From a virus, in the UHGV virus genome UHGV-0330108: a DNA stretch of 42,810 bases; one strand, given 5' to 3'. The notes under the pieces were generated by a model. The model made no database searches. It was given only the letters and a program-made list of their open reading frames with translations, and was not told the DNA's origin. The position numbers were made by a program, and so were the translations under genes. This document shows positions 6,552-40,082 of this stretch, one piece after another. Position 1 is the first letter of the stretch; each line of letters starts with the position of its first letter.

Positions 6552-6554
6552 TAA

Positions 6555-6585
6555 AAGGCCCCTTACGGGGCCTTAGTTTTATTTG
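6555..6585. terminator. bidirectional rho-independent terminator
   Basis: AAGGCCCC-TTAC-GGGGCCTT flanked by an A-run upstream and AGTTTTATTT downstream, at a convergent gene junction. Confidence 0.55.
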
Positions 6586-6829: not shown

Positions 6830-6852
6830 TGAATAGTACCCTATTATATTGG
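6830..6852 (-). promoter_or_regulatory. promoter/operator cassette TGAATAGTACCCTATTATATTGG (minus-strand TATAAT plus palindrome GAATAG-N4-CTATTA)
   Basis: Perfect TATAAT on the minus strand overlapping a 16-bp palindrome; the identical 23-mer recurs at 16043-16065. Confidence 0.45.
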
Positions 6853-13916: not shown

Positions 13917-13950
13917 AACTAAGGCCCCAAACGGGGCCTTTTTCTTACTC
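13917..13950. terminator. bidirectional rho-independent terminator cassette
   Basis: AAAACT-AAGGCCCC-AAAC-GGGGCCTT-TTTTCTTACTC; the minus-strand gene's stop codon lies in the T-tract. Near-identical copy at 25239-25277. Confidence 0.65.
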
Positions 13951-14175
13951 ATCAATGTTACTTCTGTACTCCCGTAACTTCTCCAGGCTTTCAATTGCTT
14001 CCGCTAAGTCTGTTCCGGTGTCCTTGTGCCCGCGAAGGCCCATACACAATAATTTCTTCAATGCGTGCTGTAACGCCGGGTCGCGGATGTCGAAAGCGCG
14101 GAGCACATCATAAACGTCTACAGTCATAGTGCTGCCGTGGATGTTTGTCATTGTGCGGTTGTATTTTGAAGTCAT
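13945..14175 (-). CDS. hypothetical protein (76 aa)
   Basis: ORF track; last gene of the minus-strand island. Confidence 0.5.
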   Translation of the reverse strand: MTSKYNRTMTNIHGSTMTVDVYDVLRAFDIRDPALQHALKKLLCMGLRGHKDTGTDLAEAIESLEKLREYRSNIDE

Positions 14176-14188
14176 AAATCACTTTCCC

Positions 14189-14659
14189 CTACTCATGGTT
14201 TTCATGGAAACCGTATTTACTCTCCGCGGCTTTACGCGCGGCAACCGCTAGACCAAAATCGTCGTAAAGCCCTAAATGTACTTGTTTGTAGTTAACTTTT
14301 ATAAACGCGCGCCACTTACCCGCGGCTTTGTGGAAACTTACACCTGTAGCCCCGGATTTATTTATCTTTCGCATAGTTTTATTTTTACTGTTCCCTGTAT
14401 TGTCGGTGGCGCGTAGATTTTCTATTCTATTGTCTAGCCTGTTATGGTTTATGTGGTCTATTTGAGTTTTCCTGTCTAAGTTGCATTTATTATAAAGACA
14501 CCATGCTATGCGGTGGACATACACCGTTTTACCACCCATACCGCAGCACAGATAGCCTCTTACACCAACCGTACCAACCTCAGCGCCAGTAGATATCCTG
14601 GTCACCTGCCCCGTCTCAGGGCAGTATTTAAATTGTTTTGAAACATCAATATATCTCAT
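14189..14659 (-). CDS. HNH homing endonuclease with AP2-like DNA-binding domain
   Basis: HNH core GYLCCGMGGKTVYVHRIAW...IDHINHNRLDNRIENL; C-terminal GVSFHKAAGKWRAFIKVNYKQVHLGLYDDFGLAVAARKAA resembles an AP2 domain. Confidence 0.8.
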   Translation of the reverse strand: MRYIDVSKQFKYCPETGQVTRISTGAEVGTVGVRGYLCCGMGGKTVYVHRIAWCLYNKCNLDRKTQIDHINHNRLDNRIENLRATDNTGNSKNKTMRKINKSGATGVSFHKAAGKWRAFIKVNYKQVHLGLYDDFGLAVAARKAAESKYGFHENHE

Positions 14660-15786
14660 CTTAGCATCTCCGGTGAGATTGAAAGCCTACCTACTTCCCC
14701 GAACTCTGAACTATAGGTTATGACGTTAGCGGACCTCTTAGACATCCACCCGCCGCGAGAAGCATATGCATCTTTCGCCGCGAGAGTGCGATGCTGCTCC
14801 ACTACCATATTCCTACTTTCTACAATCTTTTGGTGGTGGAGATGCCCGACATGCGCATAACTGTACTCGCTTTCGCCAAATGCTTTTCTGAACTTAGCGA
14901 TCATAATGGGTTCTACCACCTCAAACCGGCATTTATGTCCGTGTGTAAAGAACAGCGTCGTTTTGCCGTGTTGCACCATCTTATAAACATCCGGCGACGT
15001 ATCGACGAACACACGAGGCTCATTGTCGTATAGCGTACTGAACATCTCAGCCAACCAAATCATGCCCGATTCGTCGTGGTTCCCTTGCACGATAAGCAAG
15101 CGAACATTTTTATGCTTAACGAGGGCCATATCGACAACACGGCGGACCATACGAATCATGTAGCGCACAAGTTTCTGATAGCGCGTGTCCGCATCTAGAA
15201 CATGACCACTTGCAGGTGTAACGGCATCCAGACTATCGAAGTGTGCAAGGTCCCCCAGCAGATTAATAACTCCTGTTCCAGCGTCAGGCGCTTTCTGAAA
15301 CGCCGCGTCGAACCATCGAGAGAACAGGTCTTCCGCAATCTTCATATCCCAGTCGTCGCCGCTCTCGTCGGCCCAGGCCAGCATACCGAGATGAAAATCA
15401 GATACCGTGTAAAGATTGAGTAGCTTGTCGTCACGTTTGGCGCGAATGGCTTTAACAGGCGCAACAGGGGTAATCTCCGACTTCATACCTTCAATTACGG
15501 CTTTCATCAACTCGACCTGACGTTCGGCATCGGTGTCAGTCTTAACCCATTGCAGTTTAGTATTGCCGAACTCGTCAACAAGTGACGACGTCCCTTTAAT
15601 CTTGTAGCCGTCCGGTACAAGGTGACTAACGTCGCGCCCGTGGCCTACGCCTTTCTTAGCCAGCTTCGCTTTACGGATGCGAATTACGCGGTCTGAGATG
15701 CCGTATTTACGGGCGATGTCGATATTCTTCATACCGGCGTTCAATTCTTCCTGCAACTGCTCGTCGGTTATTTTCTTCCGGGCCAT
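14656..15786 (-). CDS. calcineurin-like metallophosphoesterase with N-terminal HTH domain
   Basis: Phosphoesterase motifs in order: SDFHLG, LLGDLAHFD, QGNHDE, FFTHGH, GHLHH; N-terminal NIDIARKYGISDRVIRIRKAK is HTH-like. Confidence 0.7.
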   Translation of the reverse strand: MARKKITDEQLQEELNAGMKNIDIARKYGISDRVIRIRKAKLAKKGVGHGRDVSHLVPDGYKIKGTSSLVDEFGNTKLQWVKTDTDAERQVELMKAVIEGMKSEITPVAPVKAIRAKRDDKLLNLYTVSDFHLGMLAWADESGDDWDMKIAEDLFSRWFDAAFQKAPDAGTGVINLLGDLAHFDSLDAVTPASGHVLDADTRYQKLVRYMIRMVRRVVDMALVKHKNVRLLIVQGNHDESGMIWLAEMFSTLYDNEPRVFVDTSPDVYKMVQHGKTTLFFTHGHKCRFEVVEPIMIAKFRKAFGESEYSYAHVGHLHHQKIVESRNMVVEQHRTLAAKDAYASRGGWMSKRSANVITYSSEFGEVGRLSISPEMLR

Positions 15787-15823: not shown

Positions 15824-16015
15824 TTACTTCTCGTTAACATTCGAGTTGCAAGCCCAGATTAAAATAAATACCCACGGCAGCAGAATCCAACCAAGAAACA
15901 GATTGGCCATGAATATCGCCAACTTCGCTTTATGGTTGCGGAAATACGCAACCAGGAAAGGTGCGAAATAGGCGAGCAGTGCAAACAGAATTAAGGAAAC
16001 TGGTAAACTTGACAT
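15824..16015 (-). CDS. small membrane protein (63 aa from MSSLP...)
   Basis: ORF track frame 15824-16030; second ATG at 16015 has GGAGGG 8 nt upstream; two predicted TM helices. Confidence 0.5.
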   Translation of the reverse strand: MSSLPVSLILFALLAYFAPFLVAYFRNHKAKLAIFMANLFLGWILLPWVFILIWACNSNVNEK

Positions 16016-16042
16016 TTTAAATCCCTCCATTGTTGGTGTGGG

Positions 16043-16065
16043 TGAATAGTACCCTATTATATTGG
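16043..16065 (-). promoter_or_regulatory. promoter/operator cassette TGAATAGTACCCTATTATATTGG, identical to 6830-6852
   Basis: Exact 23-mer repeat with minus-strand TATAAT and the palindrome, directly upstream of the island's first gene. Confidence 0.45.
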
Positions 16066-16181
16066 GGCGCGCAAGTAGTGTGCTAGAATAGGTTTGCGCC
16101 TAGTGTCGCACACGAAAAGCGGGTGGTTCCCGTCTGGCGCATCAACCTTAACCCGTAACCTCTTAACCAAAGGATTAAAGA

Positions 16182-25238: not shown

Positions 25239-25277
25239 AAAAAAACTAAGGCCCCAAACGGGGCCTTTTCTTTACTC
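25239..25277. terminator. bidirectional rho-independent terminator cassette
   Basis: A9-CT-AAGGCCCC-AAAC-GGGGCCTT-TTCTTTACTC; core identical to 13917-13950; contains the stop codon of a minus-strand small gene. Confidence 0.65.
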
Positions 25278-27341: not shown

Positions 27342-27653
27342 TCAATTCCTTATATTGTTGGTGCAGGGATAACTATAATAGTTCGCTATTAGGTCGTCAA
27401 CCTCTTCTTTTGTTCCTACTACAAAAACATTTGCGTCACGTTTACGAAGCCGTTTGTGTTCCCGCAACTGATGGGCCTCCGGTTCCGTGTTTTCGTCTTT
27501 CTTCACCTCGACGAACCATATAACCCCTCCAGGAAGGGCTACCAGCAGGTCAGGCGCTCCGTTTCTACCCTCATAAGACAGCTTACGAACGAGGCCACCA
27601 ATGGCCTCGAATTGCTCTTTTGCGTATTTCTGTATTTTTCCTTCCGGGGTCAT
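27342..27653 (-). CDS. VRR-NUC domain nuclease
   Basis: ORF track frame 27342-27668; ATG at 27653; motif GAPDLLVALPGGVIWFVEVKKDE fits the VRR-NUC/PD-(D/E)XK signature. Confidence 0.7.
   Translation of the reverse strand: MTPEGKIQKYAKEQFEAIGGLVRKLSYEGRNGAPDLLVALPGGVIWFVEVKKDENTEPEAHQLREHKRLRKRDANVFVVGTKEEVDDLIANYYSYPCTNNIRN
27372..27400 (-). promoter_or_regulatory. sigma70-like promoter (minus: TTGACG-N17-TATAGT) with palindrome TAATAGTTCGCTATTA in the spacer
   Basis: Read on the reverse complement; lies inside the 3' end of the VRR-NUC gene, upstream of 27045-27338. Confidence 0.55.
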
Positions 27654-30207: not shown

Positions 30208-30227
30208 TATTTTCGACCCTTAGTAAA

Positions 30228-30247
30228 AAGGCCCAATGAAGGGCCTT
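30228..30247 (-). terminator. intra-operon hairpin / weak terminator between the SSB-like gene and the DNA polymerase gene
   Basis: Minus-strand AAGGCCC-TTCATT-GGGCCTT followed by TTTACTA. Confidence 0.35.
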
Positions 30248-30266
30248 AGTTAAATTAATTCAGATA

Positions 30267-30949: not shown

Positions 30950-30978
30950 ACTATAATAGTTAACTATTCAGGTGTCAA
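30950..30978 (-). promoter_or_regulatory. sigma70-like promoter (minus: TTGACA-N17-TATAGT) with perfect palindrome GAATAGTTAACTATTA in the spacer
   Basis: Consensus -35, near-consensus -10, 17-bp spacer; ~45 nt upstream of the ATG at 30896. Confidence 0.6.
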
Positions 30979-33485: not shown

Positions 33486-33515
33486 ACTATAATAGCGAAC
33501 TATTCATGTTGTCAA
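33486..33515 (-). promoter_or_regulatory. sigma70-like promoter (minus: TTGACA-N18-TATAGT) with palindrome GAATAGTTCGCTATTA
   Basis: Same architecture as 27372-27400 and 30950-30978; divergent from the XRE regulator gene. Confidence 0.55.
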
Positions 33516-33579: not shown

Positions 33580-33795
33580 ATGCAACCATCTGAACTAGGC
33601 ATCCGTGTAGAACAACGCCGCAAAGAACTTGGCATCTCCCAGCGCCGTCTGGCTGTCATGGCTGGCGTTTCCCAGGGCGCAATTAACCAGCTGGCACTTG
33701 GAGTAACTCAGGACGTCCGCCCGGCAACGCTGTTTAAACTGGCGGAAGTGCTTGAAGTAGACGCCAAGTGGCTGGCGTTCGGTGAAGGGGCTTAA
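33580..33795 (+). CDS. XRE-family HTH transcriptional regulator (Cro/CI-like, 71 aa)
   Basis: HTH segment ISQRRLAVMAGVSQGAINQLALG; TAAGGAG RBS; lone plus-strand gene with its own promoter and terminator. Confidence 0.75.
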   Translation: MQPSELGIRVEQRRKELGISQRRLAVMAGVSQGAINQLALGVTQDVRPATLFKLAEVLEVDAKWLAFGEGA

Positions 33796-36983: not shown

Positions 36984-37012
36984 TTGCACATCCCAACATA
37001 ATAGGATACTAT
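36984..37012 (+). promoter_or_regulatory. putative promoter (TTGCAC-N17-TACTAT) with palindrome TAATAGGATACTATTC over the -10
   Basis: Same hexamers, spacing and operator placement as 38498-38526; ~35 nt upstream of the 37046 gene; coordinates approximate. Confidence 0.45.
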
Positions 37013-37045
37013 TCACTTATCGAAACAAGACAGAGGAGTGGGGGT

Positions 37046-37985: not shown

Positions 37986-37988
37986 TTT

Positions 37989-38192
37989 ATGGGTGAGTGG
38001 GTTAAGTGTAGTGAGCGGATGCCGGAGCCGGGTCAACCAGTTTTGGTCGTCAGTAGTATGGGCGGGGTGGTCAAGAAACATGTGTACGATTGGGATGGGA
38101 TGACTTGGTGCGATTTCTACGGGGAACACGCGGAATGCGGGCGGGAAGTGTTTTCTCACTGGATGCCATTACCGGAGCCGCCAGAAGCGTGA
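37989..38192 (+). CDS. DUF551-like protein, paralog 1
   Basis: Shares WVKCSERMPE...SHWMPLPEPPEA framework with 38676-38873; pattern resembles DUF551. Confidence 0.55.
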   Translation: MGEWVKCSERMPEPGQPVLVVSSMGGVVKKHVYDWDGMTWCDFYGEHAECGREVFSHWMPLPEPPEA

Positions 38193-38226
38193 TGTTCAAT
38201 AGTTTAAGATTTTACTGAGTGACTTA

Positions 38227-38497: not shown

Positions 38498-38526
38498 TTG
38501 CACACTGATATAGAATAGGCTACTAT
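38498..38526 (+). promoter_or_regulatory. putative promoter (TTGCAC-N17-TACTAT) with palindrome GAATAGGCTACTATTC over the -10
   Basis: Same architecture as 36984-37012; ~30 nt upstream of GGGAGGAGAG and the ATG at 38558. Confidence 0.5.
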
Positions 38527-38557
38527 TCATTTACACAAATGGGAGGAGAGACAGAAG

Positions 38558-38692
38558 ATGACTAACTACGGTAGTCAGACTTTAGGCGAACTTGACGATG
38601 CATACGAAACGTCTAGGTGCACGTCTGTATGCGACGGTGATACACGCGAAATAGTAATGGGGGTAGAGGGTGAATATGAGCAAGTGGATTAA
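38558..38692 (+). CDS. hypothetical small protein (44 aa)
   Basis: Not in the ORF track; strong RBS GGGAGGAGAG; 3' end overlaps the next gene. Confidence 0.35.
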   Translation: MTNYGSQTLGELDDAYETSRCTSVCDGDTREIVMGVEGEYEQVD

Positions 38693-38873
38693 GTGTAGTG
38701 AGAAGATGCCGGAAGGTTTTACGGATGTACTTGTTACCGACGGCTCCTATGTGGAAATTATGACGCTACTTGGTGACGGTATCTGGCTTGTGTTGCTGGA
38801 GGAGTGGTCTACCTGCGTTTCTGTTGACAACATAACTCACTGGATGCCATTACCAGAGCCACCGGAAGAGTGA
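38676..38873 (+). CDS. DUF551-like protein, paralog 2
   Basis: ORF track frame 38670-38873; ATG at 38676 with GAGGGTG upstream; same framework as paralog 1. Confidence 0.55.
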   Translation: MSKWIKCSEKMPEGFTDVLVTDGSYVEIMTLLGDGIWLVLLEEWSTCVSVDNITHWMPLPEPPEE

Positions 38874-38960
38874 TGTTATGGTGCGGGTAATTATTGCGGG
38901 TGAGAAGATATACCGCACGCAAACGGTAAGTTCGAGTTAATAGATGTAGGAGAGCAGATT

Positions 38961-39458: not shown

Positions 39459-39658
39459 CCAGCATCCTTTTTATCTGGGTATTGTCAGCGGGCCAGATGC
39501 AACTGGCGGCAACAGAAACGTTTTACTCGATGGAGGCGTGCCAGTCAGCGGCACGCGCCGCAGAGAACGCGCACTTCCTGTTTCAGGGCGACAAGCCAAG
39601 CGATTCAGAGGTACGCGCTATCTGCTCACCTAAGCGACTCGGTAAACAGGAGAAGTGA
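39455..39658 (+). CDS. small protein with signal-peptide-like N-terminus (67 aa)
   Basis: ORF track frame 39431-39658; ATG at 39455 overlaps the upstream stop; hydrophobic N-terminus MTSILFIWVLSAGQMQLAA. Confidence 0.5.
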   Translation: MTSILFIWVLSAGQMQLAATETFYSMEACQSAARAAENAHFLFQGDKPSDSEVRAICSPKRLGKQEK

Positions 39659-39663
39659 TTATG
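39620..39663 (+). repeat. 44-bp gene-junction repeat, copy 1 (ATCTGCTCACCTAAGCGACTCGGTAAACAGGAGAAGTGATTATG)
   Basis: 41/44 identical to 40039-40082; spans C-terminal codons, stop, RBS and start. Confidence 0.7.
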
Positions 39664-39963: not shown

Positions 39964-40038
39964 ATATTATGACATCCAACCTTAAGGCCCGTTTGTTACC
40001 CATAAAGCCTCACGTGCTGTATAAGATGGACCAGCTCT

Positions 40039-40082
40039 ATCTGCTCACCCAAGCGACTTGGTAAACAGGAGAAATGATTATG
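40039..40082 (+). repeat. 44-bp gene-junction repeat, copy 2
   Basis: Three mismatches to copy 1, all at third codon positions of the frame encoding ICSPKRLGKQEK. Confidence 0.7.

What the first reader, a model, noticed from the sequence alone, without database searches (positions are those of the whole stretch)
14656..15786. Unusual fusion of an N-terminal HTH domain to a calcineurin-like metallophosphoesterase
All five canonical phosphoesterase motifs are present in order, preceded by ~120 residues with a clear HTH. Phage phosphatases of the lambda NinI type and SbcD/Mre11 nucleases normally lack such a domain. Candidate functions are a DNA-targeted nuclease/phosphatase or a phosphodiesterase acting on signalling nucleotides.
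Basis: partly seen in the sequence, partly recalled or inferred. Interest (0 to 1): 0.55.

Follow-up and report, generated by a model that had tools for sequence, protein, structure and literature searches.

The report
Common phage HTH-tethered Mre11-like phosphoesterase
The gene is real and does fuse a DNA-binding helix-turn-helix to an intact metallophosphoesterase, but this layout is the normal form of a very large, catalogued, functionally untested phage family (PHROG 704, labelled "DNA repair exonuclease"), so it is ordinary rather than unusual.

Summary
ORF 14656-15786 (-) encodes 376 aa with all five metallophosphoesterase motifs and an N-terminal LuxR/sigma-70-region-4-type HTH. The HTH covers only residues ~1-45. 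Residues 61-104 form a conserved beta-hairpin plus helix.

"Unusual fusion" is not supported.
- The protein matches PHROG 704 end to end (E=2e-165).
- It is 99% identical to an annotated gene of Escherichia phage EC3-1.
- It has full-length homologues in about 1,950 of 50,697 phage records.
- A published survey finds the gene in 508 of 522 Drexlerviridae.
- In 137 divergent relatives the metal-ligand residues are invariant, and many carry an HTH that Pfam recognises.

The catalytic domain is closest by fold and by weak sequence signal to the nucleases PolD-DP1, Mre11 and SbcD. It is far from lambda-type protein phosphatases. It has no Rad50/SbcC partner and no capping domain.

The gene sits in a four-gene minus-strand operon inside the tail module. 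That operon is driven by a promoter/operator element shared with the early and replication operons.

Best reading: an early-expressed, HTH-tethered, metal-dependent DNA nuclease acting in host-DNA breakdown or DNA-end processing. I found no experimental work on this family. Interest is modest.

The parts
16043..16074 (-). Promoter/operator-like element upstream of the operon: TTGCGC-N17-TACTAT, with an overlapping TATAAT and the palindrome AATAG-N4-CTATT
   Evidence: The 32-nt pattern TTGC-N11-TAATAGGnTACTATTCA occurs 4 times in the window against 0 expected. The core palindrome occurs 7 times against 0.02 expected. Of the other copies, I checked against the ORF list that 30955, 33491 and 37000 lie between ORFs next to replication or early small genes. 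The hexamers match the sigma-70 consensus only moderately, and the generic scan did not call the site.
15824..16030 (-). First gene of the operon: small membrane protein of the superinfection-immunity family (the true start is probably the second ATG at 16015, which follows GGAGG)
   Evidence: Pfam Imm_superinfect E=1.6e-12; PHROG 1039 E=2.3e-23. Sequence. The EC3-1 homologue is annotated with the shorter start.
15652..15786 (-). Residues 1-45: three-helix LuxR/GerE/sigma-70-region-4-type HTH. It is basic: 13 K/R against 6 D/E in the first 50 residues.
   Evidence: GerE/FixJ hits; HTH hits across the family; family profile against PDB: top hits GerE, RhlR, DesR; helices 8-16, 21-28, 32-44.
15475..15606 (-). 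Residues 61-104: conserved beta-hairpin (family consensus VPxGFxVKGxSTLY..G....QWVK) plus a helix. This connector is specific to the family.
   Evidence: G74 and W80 are at least 93% conserved, and S67 and K82 are highly conserved. pLDDT is about 92-94 for the hairpin.
14659..15432 (-). Residues 119-376: binuclear metallophosphoesterase domain with all five motifs and a GDxxH motif II
14656..15786 (-). Whole HTH-metallophosphoesterase gene (PHROG 704)
14189..14659 (-). HNH-AP2 homing-type endonuclease gene. Its start overlaps the phosphoesterase stop by 4 nt (14656-14659), which suggests co-transcription.
   Evidence: Pfam HNH_3 E=7.9e-10 and a weak AP2 hit; PHROG 99 E=7.4e-55; coordinates.
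13945..14175 (-). Last gene of the operon: 76-aa protein of unknown function that matches only the C-terminal part of longer PHROG families
   Evidence: PHROG 2452 E=2.5e-36, profile positions 150-220 of 235.
13921..13940 (.). Bidirectional GC-rich hairpin terminator. It ends both the tail-tube gene (+) and this operon (-).
   Evidence: Called on both strands. It is one of four near-identical hairpins in the window (repeat family D1).

Best explanation
The gene encodes an ordinary member of a very large phage protein family (PHROG 704). The family has three parts: a LuxR/sigma-4-type HTH, a flexible linker followed by a conserved beta-hairpin/helix connector, and an Mre11/SbcD/PolD-DP1-like binuclear metallophosphoesterase with a complete metal-binding site. 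Shown here: the architecture, its conservation, the fold, the intact catalytic residues, the operon structure, and the absence of a Rad50/SbcC partner. Inferred: the protein is a Mn2+/Mg2+-dependent DNA exo/endonuclease. Its HTH supplies the DNA tethering that Rad50 and the capping domain supply in Mre11 and SbcD. It is made early, from a promoter/operator element shared with the early and replication operons. It acts on DNA, most likely in breakdown of the host chromosome (nucleotide salvage and host shut-off). Less likely, it trims blocked or damaged DNA ends for recombination-dependent replication or repair.
Confidence: 0.5

Rival explanations
1. End-healing or repair phosphoesterase. The domain removes 3'-phosphate or 2',3'-cyclic phosphate groups or damaged termini from nicked DNA or cleaved RNA. 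It works with a phage polynucleotide kinase to undo damage by host defence nucleases.
For: Polynucleotide kinase genes directly flank the homologue in Klebsiella phage VLCpiM12a. They appear under or next to it in several other hits (H71, H74, H99). They are among the commonest downstream neighbours in Drexlerviridae (PMC13164509). A T5-A1-like gene also neighbours a PNK in Vibrio phage D232.
Confidence: 0.15
2. Transcriptional regulator or shut-off factor. The HTH binds specific operators in phage or host DNA, and the phosphoesterase domain is auxiliary, for example by cutting at bound sites or sensing a ligand.
For: The HTH is of the LuxR/GerE/sigma-70-region-4 class that normally reads specific sites. 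Some depositors call homologues 'transcriptional regulator' or 'sigma-70 region 4 domain-containing protein'. In T1-like phages the gene sits immediately upstream of the lysis cassette (PMC13164509). The window carries 7 copies of an AATAG-N4-CTATT palindrome at promoter-like sites, one of them in front of this operon. T5 A1 is annotated as needed for shut-off of host and pre-early genes.
Against: The catalytic residues are invariant across the family while the HTH is the least conserved segment, so selection acts mainly on the enzyme. A Cro/CI-type HTH_3 gene (33580-33795) lies beside two palindrome copies and is the likelier operator binder. The palindrome was not found in the 8.4-kb T1-like locus fetched.
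Confidence: 0.1
3. Counter-defence phosphodiesterase that destroys cyclic (oligo)nucleotide immune signals such as those of CBASS, Pycsar or type III CRISPR.
For: The cyclic-nucleotide phosphodiesterase Rv0805 and GpdQ are among the good structural matches. The operon appears to be early and also carries a superinfection-immunity gene.
Against: A universally retained DNA-binding HTH has no role in degrading a small molecule. The gene is a persistent core gene at a fixed position (508 of 522 Drexlerviridae, PMC13164509) rather than a variable accessory gene. The best fold and sequence neighbours are nucleases. There are no PADLOC hits, which is uninformative either way.
Confidence: 0.07
4. Lambda NinI-type Ser/Thr/Tyr protein phosphatase.
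For: Same superfamily. Some depositors annotate homologues as 'phosphatase'.
Confidence: 0.03

Closest known systems
PHROG 704 ('DNA repair exonuclease'), also deposited as 'calcineurin-like phosphoesterase superfamily domain protein': e.g. Escherichia phage EC3-1 gp31 (XPO96114.1) and Shigella phage pSf-2 gp6
   Same: Full-length match (residues 4-375 to profile positions 2-389 of 390). 99.2% identity to EC3-1 gp31. Same operon neighbours (imm, HNH, orf76) in EC3-1.
   Different: Nothing substantive. The family itself has no experimentally established function, and no dedicated Pfam or NCBIfam model hit the protein.
Mre11 / SbcD / PolD-DP1 nuclease branch of the metallophosphoesterase superfamily
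   Different: No significant sequence similarity (E at least 0.09). No C-terminal capping or dimerisation domain. No Rad50/SbcC ATPase anywhere in the genome. Instead there is an N-terminal HTH plus a hairpin/helix connector, and a family-specific conserved insert VTPxSGHxLDADxR after motif II.
Phage T5 A1 (with its DNA-binding partner A2)
   Same: Predicted metallophosphatase of a virulent siphophage, associated with a DNA-binding function, made at the start of infection, genetically required for host DNA degradation and shut-off. Some A1 homologues also neighbour a PNK.
   Different: 556 aa with a different N-terminal region. DNA binding is on a separate protein. Different PHROG (1745). The profile-profile comparison finds only the motif III segment (probability 17-22%). 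This is an analogy, not demonstrated close homology.
Mycobacteriophage A10ZJ24 gp48 (cluster A metallophosphoesterase; PMC12287305)
   Same: Solo phage metallophosphoesterase with five motifs. Expressed early, degrades DNA in vitro and host DNA in vivo, acts as counter-defence.
   Different: Motif I begins at residue 10, so there is no HTH or connector. Relatedness to PHROG 704 beyond the superfamily level was not tested here.
Lambda NinI (lambda protein phosphatase)
   Same: Phage-encoded member of the same superfamily.

Membership tests
PHROG 704 (phage 'DNA repair exonuclease') | Significant full-length match to the family HMM | tested here: met
   E=2e-165, 551.6 bits, residues 4-375 against profile positions 2-389 of 390.
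Calcineurin-like metallophosphoesterase superfamily | Five ordered motifs: DxH, GD, GNH(D/E), H, GxH | tested here: met
   D130/H132, G178/D179, G235/N236/H237/D238, H282, G314/H315/H317. Nine of these are invariant in 137 sequences.
Calcineurin-like metallophosphoesterase superfamily | Pfam PF00149 or PF12850 score above the gathering threshold | tested here: not met
   25.2 bits against 27, and 19.5 against 21.5. The E-values (1.8e-5, 1.5e-3) are nonetheless supportive.
Calcineurin-like metallophosphoesterase superfamily | Metallophosphoesterase fold | tested here: met
Calcineurin-like metallophosphoesterase superfamily | Metal-dependent phosphoester hydrolysis | not testable with these tools
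   Needs biochemistry.
Mre11/SbcD nucleases | Significant sequence similarity to Mre11/SbcD | tested here: not met
   Best E=0.087 for the catalytic-domain profile against T. maritima Mre11/SbcD. No NCBIfam or Pfam SbcD/Mre11 model hit.
Mre11/SbcD nucleases | Motif II GDxxH (nuclease-type histidine) | tested here: met
   H182 is conserved in 132 of 137 sequences and aligns to the H of T. maritima GDLLH. The functional role of this His in Mre11 is recalled from the literature, not tested here.
Mre11/SbcD nucleases | Capping domain C-terminal to the nuclease core | tested here: not met
Mre11/SbcD nucleases | Partner Rad50/SbcC ABC-ATPase encoded in the genome | tested here: not met
   None in the annotated near-identical genome EC3-1 or among the large ORFs of the window.
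Lambda NinI / PPP protein phosphatases | GDxVDRG and GNHE signatures; PPP-like fold | tested here: not met
T5 A1 family (PHROG 1745) | Profile-level homology across the catalytic domain | tested here: not met
   hhalign probability 16.9% (single sequence) and 21.6% (8-sequence profile), 20-26 columns around motif III only. The window protein does not hit PHROG 1745.
LuxR/GerE/sigma-70 region 4 HTH class | Sequence match to HTH models and a helical HTH fold at the N-terminus | tested here: inconclusive
   For the window protein alone the hits are below threshold (GerE E=0.012; FixJ E=2.6e-4 against NCBIfam). Family level: Sigma70_r4_2 in 14 members (best 1.5e-9) and GerE in 7 (best 2.4e-8), but also HTH_1, HTH_8 and HTH_50, so the HTH is certain and the subclass is approximate. 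The profile's top PDB hits are GerE, RhlR and DesR (E 0.04-0.3). The AF2 model shows three helices.
LuxR/GerE/sigma-70 region 4 HTH class | DNA binding | not testable with these tools
   Needs EMSA or ChIP.

The most novel reading that the evidence does not exclude
The family is a one-polypeptide equivalent of the T5 A1/A2 pair. In this reading it is a host-takeover nuclease whose sigma-4/LuxR-like HTH directs it to particular DNA, such as host promoters or unmodified DNA. It would couple transcriptional shut-off with selective destruction of the host chromosome while sparing phage DNA. That would make it the long-unidentified host-DNA-degradation function of T1-like and Jersey-like phages.
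Probability: 0.15. Interest if true: 0.6.

Novelty: already known. Interest (0 to 1): 0.3.

Why it matters
As a discovery it matters little. The gene, its family and its two-domain make-up are already in public databases and are routinely annotated.

As an open question it has some value. This is a persistent core gene of Drexlerviridae (T1-like) and is common in Guernseyvirinae, Jedunavirus, many Vibrio phages and N4-like roseophages. It occurs in about 4% of deposited phage genomes. I found no published experiment on it.

The analysis gives a concrete, cheap-to-test hypothesis: an HTH-tethered, Rad50-independent, Mre11-like DNase made early. If it does drive host-DNA breakdown, that would explain a classical T1 phenotype. 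It would also identify a likely source of the nucleotide danger signals that some defence systems sense.

Tried and rejected
1. Nine literature searches found no functional study of this family. The leads on retron and Druantia papers were empty. The 'conserved folds' preprint concerns Mre11-Rad50 fusions, not this family.
2. A specific link to T5 A1 was tested with an 8-member A1 profile. Only motif III aligned, at low probability, so it is kept as an analogy only. T5 A2 against the N-terminus gave no similarity.
3. phmmer of the single sequence against PDB gave only spurious hits, such as the STIV B204 ATPase.
4. PADLOC gave no hits.
5. The search for related loci in bacterial genomes failed twice because no stretch was conserved enough to back-translate. 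The prophage and cellular distribution is therefore known only from the E. coli blastn negative and one Pseudovibrio genome copy.
6. The AFDB fold library was unavailable.
7. The generic sigma-70 scan found no promoter upstream of the operon. The promoter-like element was found through repeat analysis instead.
8. I considered whether the HTH-phosphoesterase binds the AATAG-N4-CTATT palindromes. I judged the adjacent Cro-like HTH_3 protein the likelier binder.

Full report
WHAT THE WINDOW IS. The 42.8-kb window is essentially a complete genome of a Kagunavirus-like (Guernseyvirinae) virulent siphophage of E. coli. The 2.2 kb around the finding is 93-96% identical to Escherichia phages Ro145clw, HSE2, EC3-1 and AV104. 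The gene order matches the annotated genome of EC3-1. Structural genes run on the + strand to about 25.2 kb. The replication module runs on the - strand from 25.4 to 36.6 kb, and small early genes run on the + strand from about 37 kb.

CHECK OF THE OBSERVATION. The ORF lies exactly at 14656-15786 (-) and encodes 376 aa. A GAGGA ribosome-binding site precedes the ATG. The five metallophosphoesterase motifs are present in order:
- I: D130-x-H132
- II: G178-D179
- III: G235-N236-H237-D238
- IV: H282
- V: G314-H315-x-H317

I aligned the protein with 136 representatives taken from clusters at 50% identity; these share 31-50% identity with it. D130, H132, G178, D179, N236, H237, H282, G314 and H317 are invariant. 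H182, D184, D238 and H315 are at least 90% conserved. Pfam Metallophos_2 and Metallophos hit just under their curated cut-offs.

The N-terminus gives weak GerE/FixJ-type HTH hits in the window protein. Across 120 relatives, many have significant hits to HTH models: HTH_1 in 26, HTH_8 in 17, HTH_50 in 16, Sigma70_r4_2 in 14 (best 1.5e-9), HTH_23 in 11 and GerE in 7. The family profile's best PDB matches are GerE, RhlR and DesR.

An AlphaFold2 model built on the 137-sequence alignment is confident (mean pLDDT 93.5, pTM 0.81). It shows:
- a three-helix HTH (helices 8-16, 21-28, 32-44)
- a less confident linker (pLDDT about 68 at 41-60)
- a beta-hairpin (61-85)
- a helix (87-104)
- the catalytic core (119-376)

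The HTH is about 45 residues. The remaining N-terminal part is a separate, well-conserved connector (family consensus VPxGFxVKGxSTLY..G....QWVK, with G74 and W80 nearly invariant).

IS IT UNUSUAL? No.
- The protein matches PHROG 704 ('DNA repair exonuclease') over its whole length at E=2e-165.
- It is 99.2% identical to EC3-1 gp31, annotated as a calcineurin-like phosphoesterase.
- tblastn finds it in 2,041 of 50,697 phage records, and 1,958 of those cover at least 80% of the query, N-terminus included. The hits include Escherichia, Klebsiella, Salmonella, Vibrio, Campylobacter, Rhodobacter and Ruegeria phages and N4-like roseophages.
- An exhaustive HMMER search of 1.84 billion representatives gives 4,672 clusters at E of 1e-3 or better and 1,152 at 1e-30 or better.
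- Of the best 150 clusters, 141 are at least 355 aa long, i.e. long enough to carry the N-terminal extension.
- Source names already include 'winged helix-turn-helix domain-containing protein', 'sigma-70 region 4 domain-containing protein' and 'metallophosphoesterase'.

The fusion is therefore the defining architecture of a catalogued family, not an oddity of this phage.

A profile of the catalytic domain alone approaches only T. maritima Mre11/SbcD (E 0.09-0.3) and the Pseudomonas 'Nuclease MPE' in PDB. The family consensus 'tDlHlG' aligns to SDWHLG and 'lGDflH' aligns to TGDLLH. Motif II is thus of the Mre11 GDxxH type (H182 in 132 of 137 sequences), not the GDxVDRG type of lambda phosphatase.

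The protein is not a member of the Mre11/SbcD family in the strict sense. Sequence similarity is not significant, there is no capping domain, and no Rad50/SbcC-like ATPase exists in the genome. It also has a family-specific conserved insert after motif II, VTPxSGHxLDADxR.

Fold alone does not exclude a small-molecule phosphodiesterase. The family-wide HTH is what tips the balance to a nucleic-acid substrate.

GENOMIC SETTING. The gene is the second of four minus-strand genes embedded between the tail-tube gene and the tail-assembly-chaperone gene, both on the + strand. In order they are:
- imm, a superinfection-immunity-family membrane protein (15824-16030)
- the HTH-phosphoesterase
- an HNH-AP2 homing-type endonuclease, whose start overlaps the phosphoesterase stop by 4 nt
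- a 76-aa ORF

A bidirectional hairpin terminator at 13921-13940 follows.

Repeat analysis revealed a conserved element immediately upstream of imm (16043-16074, -): TTGC-N11-TAATAGGnTACTATTCA. It occurs four times in the window against none expected. Its core palindrome AATAG-N4-CTATT occurs seven times against 0.02 expected. Of the other copies, I checked against the ORF list that three lie between ORFs: 30955 and 33491 in the replication module and 37000 upstream of the first early + strand ORF. The remaining copies are at 6832, 27377 and 38514.

I infer that the operon is co-regulated with early and replication genes, not with the late genes that surround it. This is an inference from sequence. 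The hexamers are only moderate sigma-70 matches, and the generic scan missed them.

In other phages the homologue lies in different places:
- just upstream of the lysis cassette in T1-like pSf-2
- after dCTP deaminase and thymidylate synthase in an N4-like roseophage
- between polynucleotide-kinase and dNMP-kinase genes in Jedunavirus
- next to an HNH endonuclease in Vibrio phages

blastn finds nothing in 5,426 complete E. coli genomes, consistent with restriction to virulent phages. One distant relative sits on a 349-kb Pseudovibrio contig.

MECHANISM PROPOSED.
- Shown: architecture, conservation, fold, intact active site, operon structure, absence of an ATPase partner.
- Inferred: a metal-dependent DNA exo/endonuclease whose HTH provides DNA tethering, made early, acting in host-chromosome breakdown and nucleotide salvage, or in processing DNA ends.

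There are precedents for solo or HTH-assisted phage metallophosphoesterases that destroy host DNA. Mycobacteriophage A10ZJ24 gp48 is early, is a DNase in vitro and counters host defence (PMC12287305). T5 A1 works with the DNA-binding protein A2. However, gp48 lacks the HTH, and I could not demonstrate specific homology to A1 (hhalign probability 17-22%, motif III only). Both are analogies.

My confidence that the protein is a DNA nuclease is about 0.5. My confidence in the host-DNA-degradation role specifically is lower.

RIVALS.
- An end-healing enzyme cooperating with PNK. Neighbourhood evidence supports it, but there is no PNK in this phage and the motif branch is wrong.
- A sequence-specific regulator or shut-off factor. 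The HTH class and the palindromes support it, but the enzyme part is the most conserved, and a Cro-like HTH_3 gene at 33580-33795 next to two palindromes is the likelier operator binder.
- A signalling-nucleotide phosphodiesterase. The fold permits it, but the HTH and the gene's core status argue against it.
- A lambda-type protein phosphatase. The motifs and the fold ranking argue against it.

NOVELTY AND VERDICT. The gene and its family are already known and routinely annotated, and this copy is 99% identical to a deposited one. What is not known is the function: nine literature searches found no experiment on the family. The finding is therefore ordinary as a genome feature (interest 0.3). 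It does point to a widespread, core, untested phage enzyme with a clear experimental path.

Noticed in passing
window 6832-6845, 16045-16058, 27377-27390, 30955-30968, 33491-33504, 37000-37013, 38514-38527: The palindrome AATAG-N4-CTATT occurs 7 times against 0.02 expected. It is embedded in a longer promoter-like element (TTGC-N11-TAATAGGnTACTATTCA). The copies at 16045, 30955, 33491 and 37000 were checked against the ORF list and lie between ORFs. Phage EC3-1 has 8 copies. It is probably the shared early/middle promoter-operator of this phage group. A Cro/CI-type HTH_3 gene (33580-33795, +) lies next to two copies and is a candidate binder.
   Followed up: partly
window 6553-6583, 13919-13949, 25246-25276, 30226-30256: Four copies of nearly the same GC-rich hairpin (AAGGCCCC-nnnn-GGGGCCTT flanked by A/T runs). 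The copy at 13921-13940 is called as a terminator on both strands, and the one at 25246 lies where the + strand structural genes meet the - strand replication genes. They may act as bidirectional terminators.
   Followed up: partly
window 14189-14659 (-): An HNH-AP2 homing-type endonuclease gene overlaps the phosphoesterase stop codon by 4 nt. HNH or other homing endonucleases also sit next to the homologue in Vibrio phage 92E46-1, phage mEp010 and Pectobacterium phage PP99. The conserved phosphoesterase gene may be a recurrent landing site for mobile endonucleases.
   Followed up: no
window 13945-14175 (-): A 76-aa ORF matches only the C-terminal third of longer PHROG families (PHROG 2452 positions 150-220 of 235; PHROG 17613 'ATPase' positions 172-237 of 246). 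It is either a stand-alone C-terminal domain or a remnant of a longer gene.
   Followed up: no
window 15824-16030 (-): A superinfection-immunity-family (PF14373) small membrane protein is the first gene of the same operon. It has two possible starts (16030, or 16015 after GGAGG). This is an unexpected partner for a nuclease gene inside a tail module.
   Followed up: no
window 37988-38026 / 38675-38713, 38155-38196 / 38836-38877, 39615-39663 / 40034-40082: Pairs of 39-49-nt direct repeats with 85-92% identity, spaced about 420-690 nt apart in the early small-gene region. They suggest tandemly duplicated paralogous early genes.
   Followed up: no
L010 (Vibrio phage D232) 1-2208; L005 (Klebsiella phage VLCpiM12a) 201-3019: Both a T5-A1-like gene and the PHROG 704 gene are found directly next to polynucleotide kinase genes in unrelated phages. 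The recurrent phosphoesterase-PNK pairing might reflect a shared end-processing pathway.
   Followed up: partly
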